Part shown: positions 5,599-40,189 of the stretch, in pieces
Numbering within the stretch: position 1 is the stretch's first letter
Layout: the number at the start of each line of letters is the position of its first letter
Source of the DNA: Candidatus Kaiserbacteria bacterium
GTDB taxonomy: Bacteria; Patescibacteriota; Minisyncoccia; Phycocordibacterales; JABMNX01
NCBI GenBank assembly: GCA_016186705.1
Contig: JACPLB010000006.1
Span: 16,325-80,324 of the forward strand
DNA: 64,000 nucleotides
Direction: 5' to 3'
Notes under the pieces: model-generated
What the model was told of the DNA's origin: nothing
Database searches by the model: none
What the model saw: only the letters and a program-made list of their open reading frames with translations
Made by a program: the position numbers and the translations under genes

Positions 5599-6318
5599 AT
5601 GGAAGCGTATAAACAAAACATCTTTCAGATAGGCATTTTACTTGTTGTAGCCATTATTTTCAGCGTGCTTGCCGGCGGTATTGCTTCAATAGGAGGATTT
5701 TCAATGGAGAACTCCGTTGAGGTTGGTGTTGCAACCCTGTCTCCTCTGGGAGTAAGCGGCGGTTTCGCGATTCCGGCATCCTGCCCGTCATATGCGCATA
5801 ACCCCGGAGAGTGCACCCCGCCAACCTTTACGGCGACCGGTGGCTCGGGTTCGGGGTCAAATATATTCATCAACGAAGGAAGTTCGGCAACTCTTGAGTG
5901 GCAAGGTTTCAGCTCGTCAAGCTGTTCAGGCGTTAATTTCTCAACCGGAGGAGCAGTGTCGGGTTCCGCGGTAGTTACACCCGCCGATACAACACAGTAC
6001 ACGGTCATCTGCTCAAACGGAGGACAGTCGTCCGTCACGGTAAACGTGCTCCACCCCGACCTTTCAATTACCGCAACACCGTCGCTTCTTCAGTCGGGGG
6101 ACACAACGAGCATCGCATGGTTTGCGACGAGCGTGAACAGCTGTTCGGTCTCCGAAAATAATTCTGGCATTACCGACTCCTGGAGCGGCACGTCCGGAAC
6201 ACAGATTTCAAGTCCAATTACCGAGCAGACAATCTACACGCTCACCTGTCTCACTGACGGCGGCGCTTTGTCGGAGAGCGTGACGGTAAATCTCATTCCT
6301 GTTTTCCAGGAGTTTTAA
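5599..6318 (+). CDS. secreted protein with two tandem Ig-like/beta-sandwich repeats; GC-rich
   Basis: N-terminal TM or signal. Two ~90-aa repeats, each ending in a QYTVICSNGG / TIYTLTCLTDGG pattern. Confidence 0.5.
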   Translation: MEAYKQNIFQIGILLVVAIIFSVLAGGIASIGGFSMENSVEVGVATLSPLGVSGGFAIPASCPSYAHNPGECTPPTFTATGGSGSGSNIFINEGSSATLEWQGFSSSSCSGVNFSTGGAVSGSAVVTPADTTQYTVICSNGGQSSVTVNVLHPDLSITATPSLLQSGDTTSIAWFATSVNSCSVSENNSGITDSWSGTSGTQISSPITEQTIYTLTCLTDGGALSESVTVNLIPVFQEF

Positions 6319-6387
6319 ACATATACGCGCAGACACCGTCTGCTGCTTATAACGGCAGGCGGTGTCTTATTTCTTTAAATCATTTCG

Positions 6388-6846
6388 TTAAAAGCCGAAA
6401 AACTCGAGTATTTTATGCGAGACTGGCTCGCGAAGTTCTTCCTCTTTCAGTTTCGTGAGAAGCACGTTGCGTGCGTCCTCCATGTTCTCATCACTCAGTG
6501 GGATGACGATGTACGGCATCACGACGCGCTGTGATTTTAGGATGAGCACATGGTGTCCATGTTCGTCTTCCTCAATCCAGAAGGACTCGAGCGTCTTGAA
6601 AGGGTAGAGCGTCTCGTCAATCCCGATGCCTCGCTTGTTTATCTCAAAGTGCACCATGTGCGGGCGCCGTGCGGCAAAAAGCGCCATCACGAACGCGCCG
6701 ATGATAATAAGGAGCGCGAAGAGGATATTTTTGAAAATGACCGCGGTTACCGCGCTTGAAAGCGCGATAATGCCGAGTGCCCAGAACCAATCACTGCTTT
6801 TTTCGTGATGGTCGTACTCGTATCCTTGCCAGCTGATAGTGTCCAT
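6388..6846 (-). CDS. membrane protein, possible bacterial PH-like domain
   Basis: Two adjacent TM helices followed by a soluble C-terminal domain. No firm family assignment. Confidence 0.45.
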   Translation of the reverse strand: MDTISWQGYEYDHHEKSSDWFWALGIIALSSAVTAVIFKNILFALLIIIGAFVMALFAARRPHMVHFEINKRGIGIDETLYPFKTLESFWIEEDEHGHHVLILKSQRVVMPYIVIPLSDENMEDARNVLLTKLKEEELREPVSHKILEFFGF

Positions 6847-6934
6847 ACAAAGAATCGTGATTCTCCGAAGAGAATCAATGTGACTATATATTCAATAGTA
6901 CCACGGAGCGCAAAGAGAAAGCATTAGCGCGCTG

Positions 6935-7192
6935 TTAACTTACTTTTGTTTCAAGTTGTGTCTCCGGCGCCCCGCTCTTCTTTTTTGAGAAAACAAAAAG
7001 GTAGAGGATTTCAAGAATCCCCGCGGTGTTGATGATGAGAAGCGCGATGAACCACCACTTCGCCCCCAATCGCGCCGCTCTCCACAGCGCGAGCCCTTTC
7101 CACACCGTCGTCCAAATGACAAGAACGAGGATGACTATAAGCGCAGTCCCCGTCAGAAAAGTATTTGCAAACAACGCATTTAATTCATTCAT
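6935..7192 (-). CDS. small membrane protein, PLDc_N-like (PLD/cardiolipin-synthase N-terminal domain family)
   Basis: 85 aa with two TM segments and the W..LW....LG.KWW motif (VWKGLALWRAARLGAKWWFIALLIINTAGILEILY) typical of PF13396-like proteins. Confidence 0.45.
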   Translation of the reverse strand: MNELNALFANTFLTGTALIVILVLVIWTTVWKGLALWRAARLGAKWWFIALLIINTAGILEILYLFVFSKKKSGAPETQLETKVS

Positions 7193-7436
7193 ATATTTTA
7201 ATTATATCTTATACAATACATTTTTGAATTGCGGGGACGATGTCCGGAAGTTTGAATCGAAAACGTGGCTCAAATTCAAGGATATTGATGAAAGTATACA
7301 AGAATTAAGGCGTATTTTCAAAATTCACCCTGAGTGGTTTGAAATACCAAAGCCAAAGTCAGATAAAGGTAAAAATGTGGTTGATTATTCTGTCGAAAAC
7401 TAGATCGACTTATCAAACTTCTTACGCAGCAAATCG

Positions 7437-8366
7437 TTATTGTTGATTTACTTCAGGGTCGCTTAAAGAACTTAGCCAACTTTCGTGCGCAGAATCAATG
7501 GCTTTTACATTGGCGAAAATAGAGTCAATGCGATGGATTATAAGAGCCTCGGGCGCAGAACCAACGTACAAGAGAAATTCTCGGGTTGTTTCTAATATCA
7601 ACTGTGCAATAGGCAGTATTTGCTGAGGTCTGGGGCGCCCCCATTCAAAATTCGGGCTGAAGTCATCTTCGCTAAACTCGAGGTGATGATCCAAAATGTC
7701 CGTCCAAGTGCCGTGAATACTGCGAGAGCTACCGCCGTATAGCGCTATGTATGTGGACTCGAGACCAACGTCTTTGGTCTTCTCGTAGAAGTTTTTACCG
7801 CCCCAATCTTTTGGCTTATTCGGAGTAATGTCATCAATCTTTACTCCCGAGCGGGTTGCGTACCTTTCGATTGAACTGAGCATTCGATTCTCAATGTGCC
7901 ACTTTTCACCTTCTCTAGCGGTAATATTAGTGTGAATCACATCACGAAGTTTTCGCTCGTGCCGTAACGCATACCTCACATAGGAATCAAACAAATCTGG
8001 AGAAGCGTTCCTGATTAGGAACTTTATATTTACAAGATTCTCGAACAGCAGGCGCGAGAAAATAAAAGCGGTTTCTTGGCGCTTTTGACAGACTTGATCT
8101 AAATGAGCAGACAAGAGTTTCGCGAGTCGTACAAAGTTACCGCCAACGACTGCTTGGTCCCTATTCCACTTTTCAGATCCAGGTGGAAGCACACCGGCCG
8201 CAAGAGCCACAATTGAAGCTGTTTCTTTCATCAACTCTACTGACAAATGCATAAAACCGCCCTCGTCTGTTATCGAGGTAAGTTTTTCGGGTGTTGCCTC
8301 AGCGTGACTGATAGTTTTGAGTATCTCGTCAATATCTGTTAATCCAGTTTCTTTACTTCCATTCAT
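7437..8366 (-). CDS. hypothetical protein, distal gene of the low-GC cassette
   Basis: Track ORF 7437..8411 starts with TTG. The first ATG (8366) gives a 14-nt overlap with the upstream gene, suggesting translational coupling. No recognisable catalytic motif. AT-rich. Confidence 0.45.
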   Translation of the reverse strand: MNGSKETGLTDIDEILKTISHAEATPEKLTSITDEGGFMHLSVELMKETASIVALAAGVLPPGSEKWNRDQAVVGGNFVRLAKLLSAHLDQVCQKRQETAFIFSRLLFENLVNIKFLIRNASPDLFDSYVRYALRHERKLRDVIHTNITAREGEKWHIENRMLSSIERYATRSGVKIDDITPNKPKDWGGKNFYEKTKDVGLESTYIALYGGSSRSIHGTWTDILDHHLEFSEDDFSPNFEWGRPRPQQILPIAQLILETTREFLLYVGSAPEALIIHRIDSIFANVKAIDSAHESWLSSLSDPEVNQQ

Positions 8367-9042
8367 GAATATCGTGCTTGCCGTCGTTGTATAGTTTACG
8401 ACCGTATGCAACTGCTATTTCTGCAAGGCGAGCAGCTTCTCCTCGGTGCAAATTATCCAGTACATGCTGGAAATCTCTTTGCATTTCTTTCTTCCAACCA
8501 GCTTCCTCATCTTTCCACCAGTACGACACTCCGCCATCCATTAAATCTTTGCCCATTGAATTGAGGAGTCTTGCGACCTCGTTAATTAACTCATACATTT
8601 TGTCGCTGGATGGAATAGTAGGCAGTACGTAGTCCTTTTCTCGATGTGCGAAATATGTATCCCGTGCATCCTTTAGCATTTCCAGTGATTTCTTGTGTTT
8701 TTCTTTCAGCTCTTCGAATTCCTTTTCCCGATCAATCTTATACTTCTTGGCTTCGTCTAATAGATAAGAGAGCGTTCGTTTCTGTTTATTTTTCCCATCC
8801 TCAAACAATTGAGTTATAGATAATACAGTCGCATAACAGATGCCGCTTTCGAGTGACCGAAAAAAGTAATTATACTTTTTCATTATCTCGACGTTATGGT
8901 TTGCATCTTGGTTGCCGATATAAACTTTGCTTTTTGAAAGGGCACAACAAAATAACAGCTCACAGTATGTGCTGGTCTCGTATAAGTGGTTAAAGAAGCC
9001 ATCCCACAACTTTTTTAGTTCCTCTTTGTTGTTGGTACTCAT
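8353..9042 (-). CDS. hypothetical protein with HEPN-like Rx5H motif (AbiU2/Swt1-like guess)
   Basis: Predicted all-helical 229-aa protein. The motif KDARDTYFAHREKDY (R-x5-H with AH) fits the HEPN Rx4-6H signature. AT-rich. Middle gene of a three-gene minus-strand cassette. Confidence 0.45.
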   Translation of the reverse strand: MSTNNKEELKKLWDGFFNHLYETSTYCELLFCCALSKSKVYIGNQDANHNVEIMKKYNYFFRSLESGICYATVLSITQLFEDGKNKQKRTLSYLLDEAKKYKIDREKEFEELKEKHKKSLEMLKDARDTYFAHREKDYVLPTIPSSDKMYELINEVARLLNSMGKDLMDGGVSYWWKDEEAGWKKEMQRDFQHVLDNLHRGEAARLAEIAVAYGRKLYNDGKHDIHEWK

Positions 9043-9063
9043 TTTTCGTTTCCATAAAATTAT

Positions 9064-9627
9064 TTAATCTTCCTCGCGACGAATTGAATCCCAAGATGTG
9101 CGCCAATAGTTCTTTCTTTGCTCCACATCTTTTTCGTACTCTTTCTCAAATATTCTTTTATATAAATCCCAACTGTAAGCGATACTTAAATTATGATAAG
9201 GAATGACCCCATTCGAGTTATCGTAAAATTTTTCTTCTACTGCACTAATTTTTTCTCCGTTTATAATCGATATGTTTGATTCGATCATTTTGTCATACTC
9301 TTGTTTTGCAAAGTTGGTACAAAAACGTACCAAGGTATTTCTACCGATTGCATTTAAGAGATCATCGCTGGGTTTAAAATCTTCCTTTTTACCTTGAAAC
9401 TTTTTTATTTCCTCAACCTCTTTCTTTTGAAAAGCACTGAAACTATCTTCAAATTGTTTTTGCCAATTAGTAAATAACTTCTTACTATCAGAGATTTGTT
9501 TCTCAGAGAATAAAGGATTTAAGCTCGTTTTTTCGTCACTCAAAGATGGGGTCAATTCTTTCTTATTCTTAATCCAAAAGAAATATACAATGACTCCTAT
9601 AGCGATTATCCAAATTGGTGTGTACAT
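9064..9627 (-). CDS. membrane-anchored hypothetical protein, first gene of the cassette
   Basis: Track ORF 9064..9765 reads through the tRNA. Trimmed to ATG at 9627 (MYTPIWIIAIGVIVYFFWIKNKK = N-terminal TM). A TGnTATAAT-like -10 (ttggtataat) lies just upstream, between it and the tRNA. Confidence 0.45.
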   Translation of the reverse strand: MYTPIWIIAIGVIVYFFWIKNKKELTPSLSDEKTSLNPLFSEKQISDSKKLFTNWQKQFEDSFSAFQKKEVEEIKKFQGKKEDFKPSDDLLNAIGRNTLVRFCTNFAKQEYDKMIESNISIINGEKISAVEEKFYDNSNGVIPYHNLSIAYSWDLYKRIFEKEYEKDVEQRKNYWRTSWDSIRREED

Positions 9628-9685
9628 ATTTTTATTGATTAAATTATACCAAGAAACCCTTATTTTGCTTGGGTTCAAACTTGGT

Positions 9686-9779
<94 letters not shown>

Positions 9780-9879
9780 AATATACTTCGTATTGTCGCT
9801 TGCTAGCATAATGCTAGCAAACCGGCGGCTTCGTTGGTCGTCCTCTTTCAGAGTAAACAGAAAGCAGTCTCTGTTTACT

Positions 9880-9897
9880 CCACTCAGCCACCTCTCC
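9880..9897. repeat. direct repeat of the tRNA-Ser 5' end (partial tRNA duplication)
   Basis: ccactcagccacctctcc at 9880-9897 is identical to 9762-9779 (the 5' 18 nt of tRNA-Ser). The ~100 nt between them contains the perfect palindromes ttgctagcataatgctagcaa and gagtaaacag...ctgtttactc. Confidence 0.5.
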
Positions 9898-9979
9898 CTA
9901 TCCACGATAGAGCCATAGTAGCAGAGGCAACTCCAAATGCAAAAATACAGGAGTAATTAATGTATGGTACGCTTTTTGT

Positions 9980-10369
9980 ATGAGAATTCTTGGCATTGAT
10001 TATGGAACAAAAAGAATCGGCATTGCGCTCTCCGACGACACGCTCTCTTTCGCGTTTCCGAAAACGGTTTTTAAAAATAAGAAAGATATTATATCCGGTA
10101 TCAAGAAAATAGTAGAGGAGAACGACGTCAGTGAAATCGTTATCGGGCAATCGCTCAACCTCAAAGGGGGAAACAATCCGCTTATGGAGAACATACGAAC
10201 ATTTTCCGATGCTCTCGGGAAAGAGATTGGCATTCCGATACATTTTGAACCGGAATACTTTACGTCAGTTGAGGCGCGCAAAAGTAATCCAAAGGAAGGT
10301 ATGATTGATGCTTCCGCGGCGGCGCTTATTCTCCAGCGTTTTCTTGATAAGAGAAAAGAGAGAGGATAG
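9980..10369 (+). CDS. ruvX: Holliday junction resolvase-like protein RuvX/YqgF
   Basis: MRILGIDYGTKRIGIALSD... N-terminus and size (129 aa) match the YqgF/RuvX family. Confidence 0.9.
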   Translation: MRILGIDYGTKRIGIALSDDTLSFAFPKTVFKNKKDIISGIKKIVEENDVSEIVIGQSLNLKGGNNPLMENIRTFSDALGKEIGIPIHFEPEYFTSVEARKSNPKEGMIDASAAALILQRFLDKRKERG

Positions 10370-28008: not shown

Positions 28009-29652
28009 ATGATTCGGGAGAACATAATTAATGCACTGCGGGAATCACTCGGCTTGCTCGGCATTGAGGGAGAAGATATAGAGCTTGAGCACCCGGCGGA
28101 TTCAAGCCACGGCGATTTTTCGTCAAATATCGCCTTGATTCTCGGAAAGAAACTCAAGAAAAATCCGAAAGACATTGCAAAAGAAATAATCGGAAATATC
28201 AAAAAAATTCCCGATGTTGAAAGAATCAATGCGGCGAGGCAGGGTTTCATTAATTTTTACCTGTCGGAGAGTTTTTTTGCCGATACTATAAAGGATATTT
28301 TAAAACAGAAAGAAAAATTTGGGGAAAATACTCTCTTAAAAAACAAGAAAGTCATTATTGAATACACAGACCCGAATCCATTCAAGGAATTTCACATCGG
28401 TCATTTGATGAGTAATACAATGGGAGAGTCAATCTCGCGGCTTCTTGAATATTCAAAAGCGAAAGTAAAACGGGCAAATTGGCAAGGGGACACTGGACTT
28501 CATGTGGCAAAAGTGCTTTGGGGAAAAATGAAGAACCCCGCAATGAATTGGGGAGACGCATATGTATATGGGGCGCAACACTACGAGAAAAATAAAAAGG
28601 AAATTAATGAGATTAATAAAAAGATATATGAAAAAAATGATTCTGAAATCAACGAATTATATAAAAATGGTAAAAAAGAATCTCTTGCGGAGTTTGAAAA
28701 AATGTACGAGCGCCTCGGAACGAAATTTAATTTCTATTTTTTTGAAAGCGAAGGCGGTTCTGTCGGCTTAGAAACTATTAGAAAACATAAAGACGTTTTT
28801 GAAGAAAGCGAAGGAGCAATTGTATTCCACGCAGAAAAGTTTGACCAGTCGCTTCATACTCGTGTTTTTGTCACGAAAGACAGCTTGCCGACGTACGAAG
28901 CGAAAGAACTCGGCTTGGCAAAGATGAAATATGACAAGTATCCTTACGACATTTCATTCGTCGTGACAGGAAATGAAGTGAAAGATTATTTCCGCGTTGT
29001 GCATAAGGCAATGGAGCACGTTTTTCCAGAACTTGCAGAAAAAACAAAGCATATTCCGCACGGAATGCTTCGTCTTCCGCGCGGAAAAATGTCATCGCGG
29101 ACCGGAGACGTTATTTCTGCGGAATCTTTACTCAATGACGTCAAAAGTCGTGTTCTCAAAAAAATGACATCAGATATGCCACATAAAGAAGAAATTGCCG
29201 ATGAGATTGCGGTAGGGGCGGTTAAATATTCAATACTCAAACAAACAATTGGCAACGACATTATTTTTGATTTTGAAAAGTCGCTTTCATTTGAAGGAGA
29301 TTCTGGTCCGTATCTACAGTACACTTACGCGCGAATTCTCTCTCTTCTTGAAAAAGGTATAAAAGAAGGAGTGAGGGAAAAGGTCGCTTCGGTTGAAGAA
29401 ATTACGAACGTGGACAGACTGCTCTATCGGTTTCCTGAAGTGGTAGAGCGTGCGACGAAAGAGTACGAGCCGCACTATGTGACGAACTATCTCACGGAAC
29501 TCGCGGGGGCGTTTAACAGTTGGTACGGACAAGGGAAAATTCTTGACAGCACTAAACATGCCGAACACAAGCTCGCGCTCGCCCGTGCGGTCTCAATAAC
29601 ACTTCAGAACGGCCTCTGGCTTCTCGGCATTAAAGCGCCGGAGCGGATGTGA
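28009..29652 (+). CDS. argS: arginine--tRNA ligase
   Basis: N-terminal Arg-tRNA-binding domain (PADSSHGDFSSNIAL). HIGH-like PNPFKEFHIGHL. Anticodon-binding DALK domain at the C-terminus. Confidence 0.9.
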   Translation: MIRENIINALRESLGLLGIEGEDIELEHPADSSHGDFSSNIALILGKKLKKNPKDIAKEIIGNIKKIPDVERINAARQGFINFYLSESFFADTIKDILKQKEKFGENTLLKNKKVIIEYTDPNPFKEFHIGHLMSNTMGESISRLLEYSKAKVKRANWQGDTGLHVAKVLWGKMKNPAMNWGDAYVYGAQHYEKNKKEINEINKKIYEKNDSEINELYKNGKKESLAEFEKMYERLGTKFNFYFFESEGGSVGLETIRKHKDVFEESEGAIVFHAEKFDQSLHTRVFVTKDSLPTYEAKELGLAKMKYDKYPYDISFVVTGNEVKDYFRVVHKAMEHVFPELAEKTKHIPHGMLRLPRGKMSSRTGDVISAESLLNDVKSRVLKKMTSDMPHKEEIADEIAVGAVKYSILKQTIGNDIIFDFEKSLSFEGDSGPYLQYTYARILSLLEKGIKEGVREKVASVEEITNVDRLLYRFPEVVERATKEYEPHYVTNYLTELAGAFNSWYGQGKILDSTKHAEHKLALARAVSITLQNGLWLLGIKAPERM

Positions 29653-29720
29653 CCTTGTTAATCTCGAGCGGTTATGTATAATTTCAGGTCAGAACACATC
29701 GTTCTTGAAGAGGAGGACGC

Positions 29721-30068
29721 ATGTCCTTACGAGAATCATTACGTGAAAACGAAGATGCTCTGCGGACAATACATCTCAACAGGGTATACGCGAGCTCCCC
29801 ACTGAGTCATCTTCGTGAGGCGGAAGACGCTATCTGCGATAACATCGCTCACTCATTTCAGTGGGCTCAAAAAATCATGGAGTGGCGAAAGGGTGCGGGA
29901 CTCCGGTGTTTCCCTGTTCGACTCGACCCCATGTTCGCACCCATGTTCGCACGAGGAGAGGACCACGTGACTGTTAGGGAGAGACAATATTTCCCTGCTG
30001 CGTTTGAACTCGTACAGGGGCGCAGTTTGACTGGAGAAGTCCTGCTTGTCTTTAAGAGCGGTGGATAA
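29721..30068 (+). CDS. hypothetical protein, GC-rich ORFan
   Basis: 115-aa ORF between argS and ileS with elevated GC. Contains a perfect tandem 12-mer ccatgttcgcac x2 (29929-29952). A terminator-like hairpin cggccgcctacggcggcc follows. Confidence 0.3.
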   Translation: MSLRESLRENEDALRTIHLNRVYASSPLSHLREAEDAICDNIAHSFQWAQKIMEWRKGAGLRCFPVRLDPMFAPMFARGEDHVTVRERQYFPAAFELVQGRSLTGEVLLVFKSGG

Positions 30069-30178
30069 CCACCTCTCCTCCTCCGTACCTCGGCCGCCTA
30101 CGGCGGCCATTTCTTTTACGCAACTCTCCAATCTGCTACTATTGGTAGATATTTAGCTATGGCAAAGGGTTTTCCCCT

Positions 30179-33100
30179 ATGGATATGAATGACAAGAAAA
30201 GCGATATTGCGAAACGGGAAGAGAAAATTCTTACATTTTGGAATGATAATAAAATCTTTAAAAAATCCGAAGAGAAAGACGCGCCACGGGGAGAATACAT
30301 TTTCTACGATGGACCGCCGTTCGCCACGGGACTTCCGCATTACGGGCACATTCTCGCAGGTACAATAAAAGACGTTATTCCGCGTTACAAAACAATGTGC
30401 GGCTTCCGTGTGAAGCGGCGATGGGGCTGGGATTGCCATGGTCTTCCGCTTGAAAATGAAATAGAGGCGGAACTCGGACTTAAGACGAAGCGGGATATTG
30501 AGAAACTCGGCGTCGGTACTTTCAACGCGGCAGCGCATGGCGCGGTACTCCGTTTTGCCGATGATTGGAGAAAAATTATACCTCGCTTGGGAAGGTGGGT
30601 GAATATGGAGAGCGATTACCGGACAATGGACGCGACGTACACCGAGTCGGTATGGTGGGCGTTTGGCGAACTCTACAAAAAGAAGCTCATCTACAAGGGA
30701 TTCAAATCAATGCATCTCTGCCCGCGATGCGGCACGACGCTCTCAAATTTTGAAGTGAATCAAGGATACAAAGACACTACCGACATATCGGCATATGTAA
30801 AATTTCCTCTTAAAGATAGGCCGGACGCCTTCCTTCTCGTCTGGACAACGACGCCGTGGACGCTTCCCGGGAACATGGCGGTTGCGGTCAATAAAGATAT
30901 CACATACGCAAAAATTCAAATAGGGAGAGACATTTTGATACTTGCAAAGAATCGTCTCTCGATTCTTGGCGGGGGGTATAAAATAATAGAAGAATTCAAG
31001 GGAGAGAAACTTGTTGGCACGTCATATACGCCACCGTTTGATTACTATACAAGCGCAGACATTAAAGAAGAAGAAAATGCGTGGAAAATTTATCACGGAG
31101 ACTTTGTATCAACCGAAGAGGGAACAGGTATCGTACATATCGCTCCTGCGTTCGGAGAGGATGACCTCGCTCTGGCGCAGAAAAATGATGTTCCAATCGT
31201 ACACCATGTAACGACCGAGGGCGTTTTTGCCGACACGGTTACAGATTTTGCCGGACGTCCTGTGAAACCGAAAGAAAACCCTCAAGAAGCCGATATTGAA
31301 ATCATCAAGTATCTTGCACACAAAAATCTTTTATTCAAAAAAGAAAAAATCACGCACCCGTATCCGTTCTGCTGGAGGTGCGATACGCCGCTTCTCAACT
31401 ACGCATCATTATCGTGGTTTGTCAGAGTGATCAATTTCAAAGAAAAATTGGTTCGACAGAACAAGCGTATCGGATGGGTGCCAAAAGCGGTTGGTGAAAA
31501 CAGATTCGGCGACTGGCTTCTCCATGCACGCGACTGGGCGATTTCACGGACGCGCTTCTGGGGAGCTCCTTTACCCGTATGGGTAAATGGAAAGACCGGA
31601 AAGCATGTCATTATTGACTCCGTTGATGAACTGAAAAAATATATAAAGAGGTCCGGTAACCGTTACTCTGTCGCACGACATGGAGAAAGCGAAAAAAATG
31701 TATCACCCGTGATCGTTACGGATAATCCAGATGCGCCGTACCATATTACGGAAAAAGGGAAGCTTGAAATCCGAGATGCCCTAAAGCAGTTTAATGGTGA
31801 AAACTTTGACCTCATAATCACATCTCCTGTTCTACGAGCACGAGAGACCGCCGAATTTGTTGCCGAACATCTCGGATTTAATAAGAAAGATATCATTGTT
31901 GACGAACGTATTCGTGAACTTGAGCATGGCACTTGGGAAGGGAGACCACTTGCAGAATTTGAGAATACGTTTCCCACAGACCCGTCTCGTTTTGAGAGTG
32001 GTCCTGAAGGCGGTGAGACATGGACAGACGTACGAAACCGTATGGGGGAATTCTTGTATGAACTTGAACGCATACACAAAGGAAAGCGCATACTCATTGT
32101 CTCGCATGGCGACCCTCTCGCGCTCATGAATGCTTTAGCGAAGGGGCTCTCAAAAAAAGAAACAGTCAGGTTGTGGAATGAAGTTTACCCACGTAAGGGT
32201 GAGATTCATGAACTTGATTTTACTCCCCTCCCGCACAATGAGAACTACGAGCTTGACCTCCATCGACCGTACATTGATGACATTAAGCTTGTTGATACTC
32301 ACGGAGAGAAACTCTCGCGTGTTCCTGATGTCTTTGACTGCTGGTTTGAATCCGGCTCAATGCCCTACGCACAACATCATTATCCGTTTGAAAATACGAA
32401 CATCTTTAATCCGAAGAAAAGGTTCTTTAGAAGAAGGAAAGGATATCCGGCAGATTTCATCGCTGAAGGAATGGACCAAACACGCGGATGGTTTTACTCG
32501 CTCCTCGTACTCGGTGTGGGACTCTTCGGTCTCTCTCCGTACCGCCATGTGATTGTGAACGGCCTCGTGCTCTCGGAAGACGGAAAGAAAATGAGCAAGC
32601 GTCTGAAAAATTACCCCGACCCGATGGCTGTTGTTGATACATACGGAGCGGACGCACTGCGCTACTACCTCCTGTCTTCTCCAGTAGTGCGAGGAGAAGA
32701 TTTACGTTTCTCCGAGAAAGGGGTTGACGAGGTAATGAAAAAGATTCTTGTTCGACTCTCGAACGTCCATTCGTTTTACGCGCTCTACGCGGTAAAAGAA
32801 AAAATATCGTATGAAAAGAGCAACAATGTCCTTGATAAATGGATACTTGCCCGTACGCAATCGCTTATAAACGATGTCACAGACGCCATGGAGCGCTATG
32901 AGCTTGACCAGGCAACACGCCCGCTCTCGCTGTTTGTGGATGACTTTTCTACATGGTATATACGGCGTTCTCGGGAGCGTTTTAAAGCGGAAAGAAAGAA
33001 TGAAACACTCCACACCACTCGCTTTGTCCTCCTTACCTTGAGCAAAGTCATGGCGCCGTTCATACCGTTTTACGCAGAATCTCTATATCAGGCAGTCAAA

Positions 33101-33649
33101 GACGAGACTCTTCCGGAGAGCGTTCATTTATGCGATTGGCCTTCCGCGGGGAAAGTGGATGAACGCATACTATCAGATATGAAGTTAACACGAGAGGTCG
33201 TTTCATTCGCGCTTGAAGCGCGGGCGCAGGCGGGAATCAAAGTTCGGCAACCTCTATCTACGCTTACGGTCAAAAATAATAGATTAAAGGGGAACGGACA
33301 ACTGATTGCGCTGATAAAAGATGAAGTAAACGTAAAGAACGTTGAATTTTCAGATATACAAGAAGGAAAAGTAACGCTCGACACGCATATCACAGAGGAG
33401 CTCAAAAATGAGGGGCTGATGCGCGACATCGTGAGGCAGATTCAGCAATTCCGCAAAGACAGCGGAGTTATTCCGCATAAGCACATTAGGCTCTCGGTTA
33501 TCGCGGATGAAATGTCTCGGAAAATCATCATGTTATTTGAAGATGAGATAAAAAGGGCAACGCTTCTTTCGCAGATTTCTTTTGAAAAGACGACTGACGG
33601 AGGCGTGATTAATAATAGTCGGCAGTTAACATTCTCACTTAAAGAGTAA
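30179..33649 (+). CDS. ileS: isoleucine--tRNA ligase with inserted histidine-phosphatase (PGAM-like) domain
   Basis: HIGH-region PFATGLPHYGHIL, CP1 editing-domain signature (TTTPWTLPGN), KMSKR (KMSKS). Between WAISRTRFWGAPLP and DLHRPYIDDI sits a ~190-aa insert with RHGESEKN, SPVLRARETAE, ELEHGTWEG and LIVSHGDPL motifs (histidine phosphatase branch 1). Confidence 0.9.
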   Translation: MDMNDKKSDIAKREEKILTFWNDNKIFKKSEEKDAPRGEYIFYDGPPFATGLPHYGHILAGTIKDVIPRYKTMCGFRVKRRWGWDCHGLPLENEIEAELGLKTKRDIEKLGVGTFNAAAHGAVLRFADDWRKIIPRLGRWVNMESDYRTMDATYTESVWWAFGELYKKKLIYKGFKSMHLCPRCGTTLSNFEVNQGYKDTTDISAYVKFPLKDRPDAFLLVWTTTPWTLPGNMAVAVNKDITYAKIQIGRDILILAKNRLSILGGGYKIIEEFKGEKLVGTSYTPPFDYYTSADIKEEENAWKIYHGDFVSTEEGTGIVHIAPAFGEDDLALAQKNDVPIVHHVTTEGVFADTVTDFAGRPVKPKENPQEADIEIIKYLAHKNLLFKKEKITHPYPFCWRCDTPLLNYASLSWFVRVINFKEKLVRQNKRIGWVPKAVGENRFGDWLLHARDWAISRTRFWGAPLPVWVNGKTGKHVIIDSVDELKKYIKRSGNRYSVARHGESEKNVSPVIVTDNPDAPYHITEKGKLEIRDALKQFNGENFDLIITSPVLRARETAEFVAEHLGFNKKDIIVDERIRELEHGTWEGRPLAEFENTFPTDPSRFESGPEGGETWTDVRNRMGEFLYELERIHKGKRILIVSHGDPLALMNALAKGLSKKETVRLWNEVYPRKGEIHELDFTPLPHNENYELDLHRPYIDDIKLVDTHGEKLSRVPDVFDCWFESGSMPYAQHHYPFENTNIFNPKKRFFRRRKGYPADFIAEGMDQTRGWFYSLLVLGVGLFGLSPYRHVIVNGLVLSEDGKKMSKRLKNYPDPMAVVDTYGADALRYYLLSSPVVRGEDLRFSEKGVDEVMKKILVRLSNVHSFYALYAVKEKISYEKSNNVLDKWILARTQSLINDVTDAMERYELDQATRPLSLFVDDFSTWYIRRSRERFKAERKNETLHTTRFVLLTLSKVMAPFIPFYAESLYQAVKDETLPESVHLCDWPSAGKVDERILSDMKLTREVVSFALEARAQAGIKVRQPLSTLTVKNNRLKGNGQLIALIKDEVNVKNVEFSDIQEGKVTLDTHITEELKNEGLMRDIVRQIQQFRKDSGVIPHKHIRLSVIADEMSRKIIMLFEDEIKRATLLSQISFEKTTDGGVINNSRQLTFSLKE

Positions 33650-33652
33650 AAC

Positions 33653-34246
33653 ATGTCGCATCACCAATATCACACCGAAGCATTCGTACTCGGAAGCATG
33701 CCGGCGGGGGAGTCAAACAAATACATTGATATGTTCACCGCGGACCTCGGGCGAGTGCGCGCGTTCGCGAGGAGCGTGCGGGAAATGCGTTCGAAACTCC
33801 GCTTTTCCTTACAGCATTTCTCACTTTCGGAAGTTTCTTTGGTACGGGGGAAAGAGGTGTGGCGGGTTGTCGGCGCGCAATTAAAGCACAGCCTGCATTA
33901 CGATATCCCGAATCGACACGGAGAACGCGACATGATGCTCCGGCTCTTCTCTCTCTTAAGACGTTTACTGAACGGCGAGGAAGAAAACAAGTCGCTTTTC
34001 AGGACAATTTCCGATGCCCTCTCATTTCTCCGCGAGAACGTGTTGAGTGCGGATGAGGTACATAATTTTGAATGTCTCATAGCGCTTCGCATACTTTACA
34101 ATCTCGGCTATCTCGCGAAAGATACCGAAAACACTCGCTTTCTCGATACGTTCGATGTCAATAAAGAGTTAATTTCACTCCTTTCTCCCATGCGTTACGA
34201 TATAGTCAAACAAATCAACTTGTCGCTTCAGGAAAGCCAGCTGTAG
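33653..34246 (+). CDS. recO: DNA repair protein RecO
   Basis: N-terminal OB-fold pattern (EAFVLGSMPAGESNKYIDMFTADLGRV..F....R), size 197 aa. Directly downstream of ileS. Confidence 0.6.
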   Translation: MSHHQYHTEAFVLGSMPAGESNKYIDMFTADLGRVRAFARSVREMRSKLRFSLQHFSLSEVSLVRGKEVWRVVGAQLKHSLHYDIPNRHGERDMMLRLFSLLRRLLNGEEENKSLFRTISDALSFLRENVLSADEVHNFECLIALRILYNLGYLAKDTENTRFLDTFDVNKELISLLSPMRYDIVKQINLSLQESQL

Positions 34247-38758: not shown

Positions 38759-40189
38759 ATGTCAAAGGCTTTCTACGTCACAACAACGCTCCCATACGTA
38801 AACGCAGACCCGCATGTGGGTCACGCTTTAGAATTAGTTCATGCAGATATTTTTGCTCGTTACTCACGACTTATGGGTCGGGAAGTGTTCTTTAATACTG
38901 GTACTGATGAGCATGGGCTAAAGGTGTATCGCAAAGCTCTCGAAGAGAATAAAGAGCCGCAAGAATATGCTGACGAGTATGCCTTACATTTCCAGAATCT
39001 GGTGGGTAAACTCGGACTCATTGAAGACATTAATTTTGTTCGCACGACAGATCCGGTTCATAAGAAAGCGGCACAAGAATTTTGGAAGCGATGTGATGAC
39101 AACGGGTACATTTACAAGAAGGATTACAAAATAAAATATTGTGTCGGATGTGAACTTGAGAAGACTGACTCCGAGCTTGAAAAGGGTTGCTGTCCTCTTC
39201 ATCCCAATCTTCCTATTGAGATAATTGAGGAGGAAAATTACTTCTTCAAGTTTAGCCAATTTCGCGAGAAACTACTCGCTCTCTATAATAATCGTCCTGA
39301 TTTTGTAGTACCGAGACAACGTTTTAATGAAATTCGTTCGTTTGTAGAGCGAGGTCTTGAAGACTTCAGTATTTCCCGTTTATCTTCAAAAATGCCGTGG
39401 GGTATCCCGGTACCTGGAGATAATTCGCAGGTCATGTACGTGTGGTTTGACGCATTGGTGAACTACATTTCGGTTATCGGATGGCCGGATAACATGAAGC
39501 GTTTTTCAAAATGGTGGCCGGCACTTCAATTCGCAGGCAAAGACCAGATACGCCAGCAATCAGCTATGTGGCAGGCAATGCTTATGGCTGTTGGAATCTC
39601 TGAGCCGTCACGACAGATTATTATTCACGGATTTATCACAAACGATGGCGAAAAGATGTCAAAATCACTCGGAAATGTCGTTAATCCAATCCCTCTCATA
39701 GATGAATACGGTGTTGATGCCGTGCGCTATTACTTGGCGCGACATACGCACCCATTTGAGGATAGTAATTTTACGATGGAGAAATTCAAAGAAGCGTATA
39801 ACGCAAATTTGGTAAACGGTCTCGGTAATTTAGTTGCTCGTATTATGAAACTTGCAGAGGATAATCTAGAACAACCTATCAAGAAACCGAAACCTGTAAG
39901 TTTTCCAAAAGAATACACAAACGCTATCGAGTCTTTTGAATTCAATCGGGCAATTGATTTTGTATGGCATAAAATACAAACGCTTGATGAGCGAATTGCA
40001 AAAGAGGAACCATTTAGACTAGTCAAGAATGAACCTGAAAAGGGAAAGCGAATTATTGTTGAACTTGCGACTGAACTCTATTGGGTTGGACGCATGCTGT
40101 ACCCATTTTTGCCTGACACAAATATAAAGATAAAAAAGACTATCCTCGCGAACAAAAAACCGGAAAACTTATTCCCACGTATCCTGTAA
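38759..40189 (+). CDS. metG: methionine--tRNA ligase (short form)
   Basis: LPYVNADPHVGHAL (HIGH), Zn-knuckle CVGCELEKTDSELEKGCCPLH, KMSKSLGNVV. Confidence 0.9.
   Translation: MSKAFYVTTTLPYVNADPHVGHALELVHADIFARYSRLMGREVFFNTGTDEHGLKVYRKALEENKEPQEYADEYALHFQNLVGKLGLIEDINFVRTTDPVHKKAAQEFWKRCDDNGYIYKKDYKIKYCVGCELEKTDSELEKGCCPLHPNLPIEIIEEENYFFKFSQFREKLLALYNNRPDFVVPRQRFNEIRSFVERGLEDFSISRLSSKMPWGIPVPGDNSQVMYVWFDALVNYISVIGWPDNMKRFSKWWPALQFAGKDQIRQQSAMWQAMLMAVGISEPSRQIIIHGFITNDGEKMSKSLGNVVNPIPLIDEYGVDAVRYYLARHTHPFEDSNFTMEKFKEAYNANLVNGLGNLVARIMKLAEDNLEQPIKKPKPVSFPKEYTNAIESFEFNRAIDFVWHKIQTLDERIAKEEPFRLVKNEPEKGKRIIVELATELYWVGRMLYPFLPDTNIKIKKTILANKKPENLFPRIL

What the first reader, a model, noticed from the sequence alone, without database searches (positions are those of the whole stretch)
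31640..32230. Isoleucyl-tRNA synthetase carrying an in-frame histidine-phosphatase (phosphoglycerate-mutase-like) domain insertion
Within the 1156-aa IleS, the segment between the conserved WAISRTRFWGAPLP and DLHRPYIDDI/VFDCWFESGS blocks is ~250 aa instead of the usual ~70. The extra ~190 aa carry every hallmark of histidine phosphatase branch 1: RHGES (catalytic His), SPVLRARETAEF, ELEHGTWEG and LIVSHGDPLAL. I do not know of an IleS with an embedded PGAM-like phosphatase. It might hydrolyse a nucleotide or aminoacyl-adenylate, or act as a regulatory or moonlighting module. The frame is continuous, so it is not two genes.
Basis: partly seen in the sequence, partly recalled or inferred. Interest (0 to 1): 0.75.

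Follow-up and report, generated by a model that had tools for sequence, protein, structure and literature searches.

The report
Isoleucyl-tRNA synthetase with embedded phosphatase
An essential translation enzyme (isoleucyl-tRNA synthetase) of a Candidatus Kaiserbacteria bacterium really does carry a complete, apparently active histidine-phosphatase domain in a surface loop; the same architecture is in hundreds of candidate-phyla-radiation bacteria and I found no paper describing it.

Summary
Window 30179..33649(+) is one 1156-aa ORF, a complete type-2 IleRS (TIGR00392 902 bits). A full His_Phos_1 domain (Pfam E=8.6e-34) occupies aa ~489-682 (31643..32224). It replaces a ~8-residue loop of the CP3 subdomain.

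It is not an assembly artefact. An independent assembly encodes the identical protein. At least 44 species-level Patescibacteria genomes and the 120 closest database relatives have the same in-frame architecture.

The phosphatase catalytic hexad (R500 H501 N507 R553 E580 H643) is essentially invariant, although the insert diverges faster than the IleRS core. IleRS synthetic and editing motifs are intact.

Some relatives carry 2-4 tandem copies, all with intact hexads. In Moranbacteria, insert-bearing and insert-less ileS alleles are interleaved, down to 95-99% core identity at syntenic loci, with a recombination breakpoint at the insert. No distant IleRS position co-varies with the insert.

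Best reading: an autonomous small-molecule phosphomonoesterase riding as a dispensable passenger in IleRS and exchanged by homologous recombination. The substrate is unknown. It is not a phosphoglycerate mutase by family cutoffs.

No paper describing it was found, and databases label it only "class I tRNA ligase family protein". I class it as a new variant of a known kind, of moderate-to-high interest.

The parts
30179..33649 (+). ileS gene. One ORF of 1156 aa plus a TAA stop, encoding a type-2 isoleucyl-tRNA synthetase with a nested phosphatase domain. NCBI MBI2618324.1 starts 2 codons later.
30179..31642 (+). N-terminal IleRS part: first half of the Rossmann fold, CP core, CP1 editing domain, CP2, the CP2-3 linker and the first beta-hairpin and helix of CP3 (ends '...DSVDELKKY').
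   Evidence: Pfam/TIGR and PDB alignments. Domain names taken from PMC7955072 and PMC7191050. AF2 secondary structure.
30338..30349 (+). HIGH signature motif (H54-Y-G-H57).
30845..30862 (+). Editing-domain motif TTTPWT (aa 223-228), invariant across orthologs.
31526..31564 (+). CP2-CP3 linker ARDWAISRTRFWG (aa 450-462). In yeast IleRS the equivalent segment lines the tRNA 3'-CCA / reveromycin pocket.
   Evidence: PMC7955072
31643..32224 (+). Inserted histidine-phosphatase (His_Phos_1, branch 1) domain, aa 489-682 (194 aa). It replaces a ~8-residue CP3 surface loop.
   Evidence: Pfam E=8.6e-34. Boundaries come from insert-less relatives. Insert-only AF2 model has pLDDT 93.7. Fold matches to PhoE, PspA, HFP, GpgP and CobC.
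31676..31699 (+). RHGESEKN: catalytic R500, nucleophile H501 and N507.
   Evidence: R500 and H501 invariant and N507 >=90% conserved in 120 orthologs. Hexad intact in 44 species representatives. Coordinates.
31835..31837 (+). R553, the second phosphate-binding arginine (SPVLRARETA).
   Evidence: Invariant; coordinates.
31916..31918 (+). E580, the general acid/base glutamate (RELEHGTWEG).
   Evidence: >=90% conserved; E, or D in one case, in all 44 species.
32105..32107 (+). H643, the second catalytic histidine (VSHGD).
   Evidence: Invariant; coordinates.
32225..33646 (+). C-terminal IleRS part: the rest of CP3 (PLPHNENYELDLHRPYID...), the second half of the Rossmann fold (VFDCWFESGS, KMSKR), the anticodon-binding domain and the C-terminal tRNA-binding domain (DUF5915).
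32588..32602 (+). KMSKR signature loop (aa 804-808).
28009..29652 (+). argS (arginyl-tRNA synthetase), a conserved upstream neighbour (context, not part of the fusion).
33653..34246 (+). recO-like gene (RecO_N), a conserved downstream neighbour (context).

Best explanation
This is a genuine single-polypeptide bifunctional enzyme.

Shown:
- A complete type-2 isoleucyl-tRNA synthetase (HIGH, KMSKR, CP1 editing site, anticodon-binding and C-terminal tRNA-binding domains all intact) has a complete branch-1 histidine-phosphatase domain grafted in frame into a short surface loop of the CP3 subdomain.
- The phosphatase keeps the full catalytic hexad (Arg-His nucleophile, Asn, Arg, Glu, His) across hundreds of orthologs.

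Inferred:
- The domain is an active phosphomonoesterase working through a phospho-histidine intermediate on a small phosphorylated metabolite or nucleotide. Its closest relatives (PhoE, PspA, the Aquifex riboflavin-pathway HFP, GpgP, CobC) all do this.
- It acts autonomously and is not a step in amino-acid activation, tRNA charging or editing. IleRS simply hosts it at a permissive site, which gives constitutive co-expression.
- The cassette arose from a ~190-aa standalone CPR phosphatase family. It is restricted to ileS because it spreads and is lost by homologous recombination between ileS alleles.

The physiological substrate is unknown.
For: Architecture is real and recurrent:
- The identical protein occurs in an independent Logan assembly.
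- 44 GTDB species representatives have uninterrupted ~1110-1230-aa ORFs.
- All 120 closest homologs carry PF00133+PF00300.

Catalysis is under selection:
- R500, H501, R553 and H643 are invariant, and N507 and E580 are >=90% conserved, in 120 orthologs that are ~55% identical.
- The hexad is intact in 44 divergent species, although the insert is only 34% identical on average against 50% for the core.
- All copies in proteins with 2-4 tandem copies keep the hexad, apart from two copies cut off by the end of the protein fragment.

Small-metabolite phosphatase type:
- Best fold and sequence matches are PspA 4IJ5, HFP 9MMH, GpgP 4PZ9, PhoE 1H2E/1EBB (TM 0.8) and CobC 6E4B. These fit better than true dPGMs (rmsd 2.4-3.2 against 6-7 A).

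Autonomy and dispensability:
- In Moranbacteria, 19 insert-bearing and 102 insert-less IleRS are interleaved on the core tree.
- P0318 (with insert) and P0333 (without) have 95-99% identical cores at syntenic loci.
- Only a junction-adjacent residue co-varies with insert presence among 944 core positions.
- Tandem arrays cannot all sit in one fixed geometry.
- The insert's net charge is variable and on average mildly acidic (median pI 6.0), so it does not add a consistent RNA-binding surface.

Recombination:
- Nucleotide identity is 96.9% up to ~40 nt before the insert and 87.4% after it. There are no flanking repeats.
- Insert and core similarities barely correlate (rho ~0.2).

Donor family:
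- Standalone 189-210-aa proteins with the same hexad and the same C-terminal extension exist.

Precedent:
- In the RNase HI-CobC fusion MSMEG_4305 the two domains were shown to be functionally dissociated in vivo and to evolve at different rates (PMC7466739).
Against: - No activity was measured and no substrate can be assigned. Every specific NCBIfam/TIGRFAM model is far below its cutoff.
- The fusion is seen only with IleRS, in two IleRS2 sub-lineages that are just 46% identical. In one lineage a standalone paralog lies directly upstream of ileS. Both facts could instead point to a real functional link with IleRS.
- The insertion point is only ~25 residues downstream of the CP2-3 linker that lines the tRNA CCA pocket.
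- The full-length model has pTM 0.85, which is compatible with a fixed, possibly meaningful orientation. I could not inspect that orientation because no coordinates are available.
- The covariation test had only 19 positive sequences, so its power is limited.
- In the window's own clade the insert appears fixed: 120 of 120 closest relatives carry it.
Confidence: 0.55

Rival explanations
1. The phosphatase is mechanistically coupled to IleRS. It would act on something produced, used or bound at the synthetase. Candidates are healing of 3'-phosphate or 2',3'-cyclic-phosphate ends of tRNA(Ile) before charging, removal of AMP or PPi to pull the reaction forward, or hydrolysis of a phosphorylated IleRS-directed antimetabolite or antibiotic (an embedded self-protection module).
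For: - The association is exclusive to IleRS among the long proteins found by exhaustive HMMER search.
- The insert sits at the identical site in two divergent IleRS2 sub-lineages.
- A standalone paralog lies immediately upstream of ileS, on the same strand, in L064/L066.
- The insertion point is ~25 residues after the CP2-3 linker that forms part of the tRNA CCA/reveromycin pocket.
- A presence/absence polymorphism maintained by recombination is typical of accessory resistance or defence traits.
- One relative adds a GNAT domain next to the phosphatase.
Against: - Near-identical IleRS cores function with or without the domain.
- No distant core position co-adapts to the insert.
- 2-4 tandem copies are tolerated.
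- The insert is not consistently basic.
- The nearest folds are small-metabolite phosphatases, not RNA-end or protein phosphatases.
- The upstream-paralog adjacency occurs in one lineage only and is absent from 44 other loci and from the 64-kb window.
- Restriction to ileS can also be explained by spread through homologous flanks.
Confidence: 0.25
2. The domain is a regulatory or sensor module. It would bind a phospho-metabolite (or be transiently phosphorylated on H501) and allosterically tune IleRS activity to metabolic state. Turnover would be incidental.
For: - CP3 connects CP2 to the second half of the Rossmann fold, so a ligand-induced change could in principle propagate.
- The full-length model is rigid enough to give pTM 0.85.
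- PGAM-fold proteins with regulatory roles exist (general knowledge, not tested here).
Against: - Conservation of the whole catalytic hexad, including the general acid E580, argues for turnover and not mere binding.
- Tandem duplication, dispensability in Moranbacteria and the lack of core co-variation do not fit an integrated allosteric device.
Confidence: 0.08
3. The insert is a neutral or decaying passenger with no selected function, retained only because precise deletion is rare.
For: - The insert evolves faster than the core (34% against 50% identity; 44% against 75%).
- A drift explanation was proposed for the analogous RNase H-CobC fusion (PMC7466739).
Against: - The catalytic residues are invariant across hundreds of lineages despite that fast divergence.
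- No frameshifts, stops or degraded copies were seen in 44 species. The one apparent 'remnant' (L046) was a masked run of N.
- Insert-less alleles are readily available by recombination in at least one clade, yet the domain persists.
Confidence: 0.04
4. The feature is an assembly chimera, a frameshifted join or two adjacent genes misread as one.
For: Some database hits are short fragments on long contigs.
Against: - Those fragments come from noisy long-read contigs in which every gene, including argS, is shredded.
- The identical 1156-aa ORF occurs in an independent assembly.
- More than 160 independent full-length orthologs share the same junctions.
- Base composition is uniform across the junctions.
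Confidence: 0.01

Closest known systems
Type-2 (eukaryote-like, mupirocin-insensitive type) isoleucyl-tRNA synthetases, e.g. Priestia megaterium IleRS2 (8C8U/8C9D), Thermus thermophilus IleRS (1ILE) and yeast/Candida cytoplasmic IleRS
   Same: The whole host enzyme matches. Scores are 724 bits to IleRS2 against 291 to IleRS1. TM is 0.84 to 8C9D. The domain order is the same: Rossmann fold, CP core, CP1, CP2, CP3, anticodon-binding domain and the DUF5915 C-terminal domain.
   Different: Known IleRS2 enzymes have a 60-70-residue CP3 with at most a zinc knuckle. Here CP3 hosts a 194-aa catalytic domain. The window protein does not reach the MupA/MupB resistance-family cutoffs (725 and 719 bits against 1900).
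Small branch-1 histidine phosphatases: PhoE/YhfR (1H2E, 1EBB), PspA phosphoserine phosphatase (4IJ5), Aquifex HFP ARAPDP phosphatase (9MMH; PMC12051542), GpgP Rv2419c (4PZ9), CobC alpha-ribazole phosphatase (6E4B)
   Same: The fold matches (TM 0.67-0.80, rmsd 2.4-3.2 A), the size is similar (~200 aa) and the catalytic hexad is complete.
   Different: Identity is only 23-31%. No specific family cutoff is reached: CobC 72.9 against 162.9, PspA 66 against 350, archaeal dPGM 86 against 225. Those enzymes are free-standing proteins, whereas this domain is nested inside another enzyme.
Mycobacterial RNase HI-acid phosphatase (CobC-type) fusion: Rv2228c, MSMEG_4305, RnhC
   Same: A branch-1 histidine phosphatase is fused to a housekeeping nucleic-acid enzyme and is lineage-restricted. 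The domains evolve at different rates and are functionally dissociated in vivo (PMC7466739). The NCBIfam model NF005567 gives the insert 77.6 bits.
   Different: That fusion is end-to-end (C-terminal), not nested. The partner is RNase H, not a synthetase. The score is far below that family's cutoff of 326.
NCBIfam NF040702 'isoleucine--tRNA ligase, N-acetyltransferase domain-containing'
   Same: It is a catalogued case of an IleRS that carries an extra enzymatic domain.
   Different: The extra domain is a GNAT, not a phosphatase. The window protein scores 302.8 bits against a cutoff of 1999, and P0262 scores 218. I found no paper on that family in the searched library.
Lineage-specific insertions in the connective-polypeptide region of class Ia synthetases (e.g. 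the LeuRS leucine-specific domain, zinc knuckles in the Thermus IleRS CP core and CP3)
   Same: The CP region is a known permissive place for insertions. Thermus IleRS CP3 has a zinc-binding motif that Candida and S. aureus lack (PMC7191050).
   Different: Those insertions are small structural or tRNA-contacting modules that belong to the synthetase mechanism. (The LeuRS example is from my own knowledge and was not tested here.) None is an independent enzyme with its own active site.

Membership tests
Isoleucyl-tRNA synthetase (TIGR00392 ileS equivalog) | Whole-protein score above the curated cutoff | tested here: met
   901.8 bits against a cutoff of 621.4, matched in two stretches around the insert.
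Isoleucyl-tRNA synthetase (TIGR00392 ileS equivalog) | Class I signature motifs HIGH and KMSKS | tested here: met
   HYGH at aa 54-57 and KMSKR at aa 804-808, conserved in orthologs.
Isoleucyl-tRNA synthetase (TIGR00392 ileS equivalog) | CP1 editing domain with its conserved threonine-rich and GTGxVH motifs | tested here: met
   TTTPWT at 223-228 is invariant, G315-T-G-x-V-H320 is conserved, and D329 is >=90% conserved. The region matches isolated IleRS editing-domain structures 1WK8 and 1UE0.
Isoleucyl-tRNA synthetase (TIGR00392 ileS equivalog) | Isoleucine-specific aminoacylation of tRNA(Ile) | not testable with these tools
   Requires an enzyme assay.
Type-2 IleRS (IleRS2) | Closer to IleRS2/eukaryotic enzymes than to bacterial IleRS1, and a C-terminal domain of the IleRS2 type | tested here: met
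   724-739 bits to IleRS2 and human IleRS against 283-291 bits to IleRS1. TM is 0.84 to 8C9D against 0.76 to 8C9E. PF19302 DUF5915 is present.
MupA / MupB acquired mupirocin-resistance IleRS (NF000257, NF000258) | Score above the curated exception cutoff | tested here: not met
   725 and 719 bits against cutoffs of 1900.
Histidine phosphatase superfamily, branch 1 (PF00300) | Pfam score above the gathering threshold | tested here: met
   117.3 bits against 21.7, E=8.6e-34, profile positions 4-166 of 194.
Histidine phosphatase superfamily, branch 1 (PF00300) | Catalytic core: RHG histidine nucleophile, two arginines, a second histidine and an acidic proton donor | tested here: met
   R500, H501, R553, H643 and E580, plus N507, are present and conserved.
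Histidine phosphatase superfamily, branch 1 (PF00300) | PGAM-type alpha/beta fold | tested here: met
   The insert-only AF2 model (pLDDT 93.7) matches PhoE with TM 0.79-0.80 and rmsd 2.4-2.5 A, and PspA at E=5.5e-14.
Histidine phosphatase superfamily, branch 1 (PF00300) | Phosphomonoesterase activity via a phospho-histidine intermediate | not testable with these tools
   Requires an enzyme assay. Inferred from residue conservation only.
Cofactor-dependent phosphoglycerate mutase (dPGM; TIGR01258, NF038349 and the PRK141xx models) | Score above the curated cutoffs; dPGM-size domain | tested here: not met
   TIGR01258 gives 26.4 bits against 81.7, and NF038349 gives 86.1 against 225. True dPGM structures fit worse (rmsd 6-7 A, TMt 0.55-0.65) than the small phosphatases. 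'PGAM-like' therefore describes the fold only.
Alpha-ribazole phosphatase CobC (TIGR03162), phosphoserine phosphatase PspA (NF045917), SixA (TIGR00249) | Score above the curated cutoffs | tested here: not met
   72.9 against 162.9, 66.2 against 350, and 29.6 against 74.5.
IleRS with GNAT domain (NF040702) | Score above the cutoff and presence of a GNAT domain | tested here: not met
   302.8 bits against 1999. Pfam finds no acetyltransferase domain in the window protein.
Bifunctional RNase H / acid phosphatase (NF005567) | Score above the cutoff and presence of an RNase H domain | tested here: not met
   77.6 bits against 326. Only the phosphatase half matches. It is an analogue, not the same family.

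The most novel reading that the evidence does not exclude
The phosphatase would be a new kind of synthetase-embedded accessory module whose substrate is tied to IleRS. Examples would be a tRNA(Ile) 3'-end phosphate-healing activity, or a detoxifying activity against a phosphorylated IleRS-directed antimetabolite. It would be kept as a recombination-shuffled presence/absence polymorphism, with copy-number variation of 1-4 copies, in CPR populations, much like a resistance or defence cassette housed inside an essential gene.
Probability: 0.15. Interest if true: 0.85.

Novelty: new variant of a known kind. Interest (0 to 1): 0.6.

Why it matters
Aminoacyl-tRNA synthetases are among the most conserved enzymes in biology. 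Extra catalytic domains nested inside their catalytic cores are rare. I found no described case of a phosphatase inside a synthetase, either in the searched literature or in my own knowledge.

- **Tolerance of CP3.** The case shows that the CP3 loop of IleRS tolerates a ~190-aa enzyme, and even 2-4 tandem copies, without loss of the synthetase motifs. That is relevant to synthetase engineering and to ideas about how new synthetase domains arise.
- **A natural experiment.** Moranbacteria provide near-isogenic ileS alleles with and without the domain. This makes the question "what does the domain do for the cell or for IleRS?" directly testable.
- **Annotation consequences.** Automated metabolic reconstructions of CPR genomes could score this domain as a "phosphoglycerate mutase family" gene. 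Conversely, the annotation "class I tRNA ligase family protein" hides a second enzymatic activity in organisms with minimal metabolism.
- **If the phosphatase is linked to tRNA or to IleRS inhibitors**, it would be a new quality-control or self-protection mechanism in translation.

Tried and rejected
1. **Assembly chimera or two genes.** Rejected. An independent assembly has the identical ORF. More than 160 full-length orthologs exist. Composition is uniform across the junctions.
2. **Split IleRS genes**, suggested by short fragments on long contigs. Rejected. Those are error-rich long-read contigs in which all genes are shredded.
3. **L046 as a decayed remnant or loss.** Rejected. The 'short' segment is a masked run of N.
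4. **L041 and ~950-aa hits as an N-terminally split architecture or a UGA-recoding artefact.** Checked for L041 only. It is one in-frame TAG at a conserved Ser codon, and table 25 does not rescue it.
5. **Leader RNA or T-box in the GC-rich gap upstream of ileS.** Rfam found nothing at gathering threshold, only five tRNAs elsewhere in the window.
6. **A second IleRS or a standalone His_Phos gene in the window.** None was found. The weak hit at 38.8-40.1 kb is another class Ia synthetase.
7. **Recurrent adjacency of a standalone His_Phos gene to ileS.** Seen in one lineage only.
8. **Recent local duplication as the origin of that neighbour.** Rejected. It is only 28-32% identical to the adjacent insert.
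9. **Transposon-like or intein-like mobility.** No flanking direct or inverted repeats beyond chance AT-rich matches were found. The domain is an ordinary phosphatase fold.
10. **An added tRNA-binding surface.** Insert charge is variable and on average mildly acidic.
11. **A co-adapted docking interface.** Only a junction-adjacent residue co-varies with insert presence.
12. **True phosphoglycerate mutase, CobC, PspA or SixA identity.** All are below family cutoffs.
13. **3D geometry of the two active sites.** This could not be done. The tools return no coordinates and the afdb50 library was unavailable.
14. **Literature.** The five searches aimed at this architecture (IleRS or aaRS combined with histidine phosphatase, PGAM, CPR or Patescibacteria) and one on GNAT-fused IleRS returned nothing that describes it.
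Full report
**1. The observation**

Window 30179..33649 (+) is one uninterrupted 1156-aa ORF. Pfam splits tRNA-synt_1 into two stretches around a His_Phos_1 match at aa 499-662 (E=8.6e-34). Anticodon_1 and DUF5915 follow. The protein passes the curated IleS equivalog cutoff, 901.8 bits against 621.4.

Against solved structures it aligns best to human, Priestia megaterium type-2, yeast and Thermus IleRS. The alignment stops at residue 487 and resumes at 693, which correspond to human residues 490 and 498. Insert-less IleRS2 enzymes have 34 residues between W468 and D693; the window has 224.

Comparison with insert-less relatives gives two results:
- 'PLPHNENYELDLHRPYID' is native CP3. Actinomycetes IleRS2 has 'LPRNEAGEVDLHRPYID'.
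- The foreign segment is aa ~489-682, i.e. 31643..32224.

GC content is the same inside and outside the insert, 0.454 against 0.464. ORFs overlapping the insert on either strand match no family.

**2. Not an artefact, and widespread**

- The exact protein is encoded on an independent Logan assembly of run SRR12113424, with the same neighbours.
- It is in NCBI as MBI2618324.1, 'class I tRNA ligase family protein [Candidatus Kaiserbacteria bacterium]'.
It still returned 44 Patescibacteria loci that match the insert; 43 match it end to end, and the 44th (L046) is interrupted by a masked stretch.
- The records are labelled Nomura-, Zambryski-, Wolfe-, Yanofsky- and Falkowbacteria, Spechtbacterales, Paceibacterota and Peregrinibacteria.
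- Nearly all of those loci have uninterrupted ORFs of ~1110-1230 aa.
- All 120 best full-length database relatives (54-63% identity) carry PF00133 plus PF00300.
- An exhaustive HMMER search with the insert alone gave 1,111 representative proteins at E<=1e-10. The top of that list is dominated by IleRS-sized proteins with the domain at residue ~485-555.
- Short 'split' hits on long contigs come from error-rich long-read assemblies in which argS is shredded too.

The gene order argS - ileS - recO is conserved.

**3. Anatomy**

Structural papers on yeast and Candida IleRS define the relevant regions:
- 'ARDWxxSRxRYWG' is the CP2-CP3 linker. It lines the tRNA CCA/reveromycin pocket (PMC7955072).
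- CP3 is the small subdomain between that linker and the second half of the Rossmann fold (PMC7191050).

The insert therefore lies inside CP3, after its first hairpin and helix.

- The full-length AlphaFold model is confident (mean pLDDT 91.1, pTM 0.85). It superposes on P. megaterium IleRS2 with TM 0.84.
- The insert modelled alone has pLDDT 93.7.
- Its best fold matches are ~200-aa metabolite phosphatases: PspA 4IJ5, the Aquifex riboflavin-pathway HFP 9MMH, GpgP Rv2419c, PhoE/YhfR (TM 0.8, rmsd 2.4-2.5 A) and CobC. True phosphoglycerate mutases fit clearly worse.
- No specific family cutoff (dPGM, CobC, PspA, SixA) is reached. 'PGAM-like' therefore describes the fold and not the function.

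**4. Selection**

In 120 orthologs that are about 55% identical:
- R500, H501, R553 and H643 are invariant.
- N507 and E580 are >=90% conserved.
- The IleRS motifs HYGH, KMSK and the editing-site TTTPWT are also conserved.

The hexad R-H-N-R-E-H is intact in 39 of the 44 divergent species representatives. Three others vary only at the Asn, one has E->D, and L046 is masked at that point. Yet the insert is only 34% identical on average, against 50% for the core. Catalysis is the constrained property.

**5. Variants**

- The same site holds two, three or at least four tandem His_Phos copies in some IleRS relatives. Every copy keeps the hexad, apart from two copies cut off by the end of the protein fragment.
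- One protein fragment (P0262) adds a GNAT domain after the phosphatase and a REP-associated tyrosine transposase domain in the CP1 region.
- Standalone 189-210-aa proteins of the same subfamily exist. They have the same C-terminal extension and are the likely donor family.
- Two IleRS2 sub-lineages carry the insert with the same 'KKSGNxY' linker. Type A has 'PPFATGLPHYGH' (the window's type). Type B is Thermus-like, with a CP3 zinc knuckle and a non-canonical 'GIHH/ALHH' in place of HxGH.
- Their cores are 46% identical. That is about as far apart as type A is from insert-less Actinomycetes IleRS2.

**6. Dispensability and recombination**

My last homolog search used a divergent type-B enzyme (L042, Moranbacteria).

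- Of L042 and its 120 best-scoring relatives (121 sequences in all), 19 carry the insert (1150-1256 aa) and 102 lack it (~980-1100 aa). The insert-less ones have a clean 41-42-residue segment, '...ELEKLSGKKLDDLHKPYID...'.
- On a core NJ tree the 19 are scattered, almost all as singletons, among insert-less sequences.
- P0318 (with the insert) and P0333 (without) are 95-99% identical in the core.
- Their loci are syntenic: argS - GT4 - small gene - ileS - CAP-domain gene.
- Nucleotide identity between them is 96.9% up to ~40 nt before the insert and 87.4% after it.
- There are no flanking repeats.
- Moranbacteria inserts are 44% identical while their cores are 75% identical, and the two measures barely correlate (rho ~0.2).
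- Among 944 core positions, only one co-varies with insert presence after Bonferroni correction, and it is adjacent to the junction.

Together these results indicate an old presence/absence polymorphism exchanged by homologous recombination. They also indicate an IleRS core that is indifferent to the insert.

**7. Other context**

- The window has no second IleRS and no standalone His_Phos gene.
- In one lineage (L064/L066) a standalone paralog lies just upstream of a fused ileS. It is only 28-32% identical to its neighbour's insert. No such neighbour exists in the other 44 loci.
- Insert charge varies widely (pI 4.7-9.8, median 6.0). The window's insert carries -7 on an IleRS body of +12.7.

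**8. Interpretation**

Shown:
- It is a single polypeptide.
- It is a complete IleRS2.
- It contains a complete phosphatase domain of the small-metabolite type with conserved catalytic residues.
- The domain is nested in a CP3 loop.
- Copy number and presence vary between relatives.

Inferred: the domain is an active, autonomous phosphomonoesterase that rides in IleRS as a passenger. Its restriction to ileS follows from spread through homologous flanks.

The closest precedent is the mycobacterial RNase HI-CobC fusion, whose domains were shown to be functionally dissociated in vivo (PMC7466739).

The main rival is a substrate linked to IleRS: tRNA 3'-phosphate ends, AMP or PPi, or a phosphorylated inhibitor. 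It is kept alive by four facts:
- the association is exclusive to IleRS;
- the insertion point is close in sequence to the CCA-pocket linker;
- the full-length model looks rigid;
- the insert shows an accessory-gene-like polymorphism.

I could not examine 3D geometry, because no coordinates are returned and afdb50 was unavailable.

**9. Novelty**

The five full-text searches aimed at this architecture, and one on GNAT-fused IleRS, found no description of it. NCBIfam has an exception model for a GNAT-containing IleRS but none for this architecture. Databases name these proteins generically.

I classify it as a new variant of a known kind: a synthetase with an accessory domain. Three features are unusual:
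- the accessory domain is a nested catalytic domain;
- it occurs in tandem arrays in some relatives;
- it is polymorphic between close relatives.

Interest: 0.6.

Noticed in passing
P0184, P0205, P0216, P0227, P0228, P0239, P0251, P0260, P0276 (database proteins; same CP3 site as window 31643..32224): Some CPR IleRS relatives carry 2, 3 or at least 4 tandem His_Phos_1 domains at the insertion site, giving proteins of up to 1468 aa. Every copy keeps the catalytic hexad, apart from two copies cut off by the end of the protein fragment.
   Followed up: partly
P0262 (1066-aa database protein fragment): This IleRS N-terminal part also contains a REP-associated tyrosine transposase (IS200/Y1-like) domain at aa ~326-472, inside the CP1 region. 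A His_Phos_1 domain (680-854) and a GNAT acetyltransferase domain (935-1063) follow. It is not a member of NCBIfam ileS_w_GNAT.
   Followed up: partly
L006, L011-L015, L018, L019, L024-L026, L028, L029, L031-L033, L035, L036, L038, L040, L042, L044 (N-terminal ~60 residues of ileS): CPR IleRS sub-lineage B has a non-canonical HIGH motif. 'PPTANGxPGIHH' / 'ALHH' replaces the H-x-G-H of Thermus-like 'PPTANGLPHVGH', so the first histidine is lost and the glycine becomes histidine. The catalytic consequence is unknown.
   Followed up: no
L069 vs L070 (Moranbacteria); proteins P0316-P0435: The phosphatase insert shows a presence/absence polymorphism among very close relatives (core identity up to 95-99%). 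A mosaic recombination breakpoint lies ~40 nt upstream of the insert.
   Followed up: yes
L064 5001-5576 and L066 5001-5576 (upstream of ileS at 6603-10115 and 5907-9425): A standalone 191-aa His_Phos gene lies directly upstream, on the same strand, of an ileS that itself carries the insert. It is only 28-32% identical to that insert. The arrangement was seen in one lineage only.
   Followed up: yes
L069 4566-4979 and L070 4263-4745: The small-gene slot just upstream of ileS differs between the two near-identical Moranbacteria loci. The insert-less genome has a NUDIX hydrolase there. The insert-bearing genome has a weak, sub-threshold nucleoside 2-deoxyribosyltransferase-like ORF. This is a possible nucleotide-salvage context.
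   Followed up: partly
L041 ~nt 4062 (Peregrinibacteria ileS): A single in-frame TAG replaces a conserved Ser codon ('CPRCETPL*NFEV') and splits an otherwise continuous insert-bearing ileS. It could be a sequencing error, a pseudogene or a recoding event; this was not resolved.
   Followed up: partly
window 29653..30178 (ORF 29721..30068 +): The argS-ileS intergenic region is GC-rich (0.50-0.55 against ~0.46 for the window). It holds a 115-aa ORF with no Pfam match, and Rfam finds no RNA family there.
   Followed up: partly
window 38792..40114 (+): A weak tblastn match to the IleRS halves indicates another class Ia aminoacyl-tRNA synthetase gene nearby. It has no His_Phos insert.
   Followed up: no
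window 28009..34246; L001, L002, L003, L065, L066, L069, L070: The gene order argS - (small ORF) - ileS - recO is conserved across distant CPR lineages.
   Followed up: partly
L046 (ileS, aa ~432-464 of the translation): A masked run of N inside the insert mimics a shortened or decayed domain in alignments. It is not a real deletion.
   Followed up: yes
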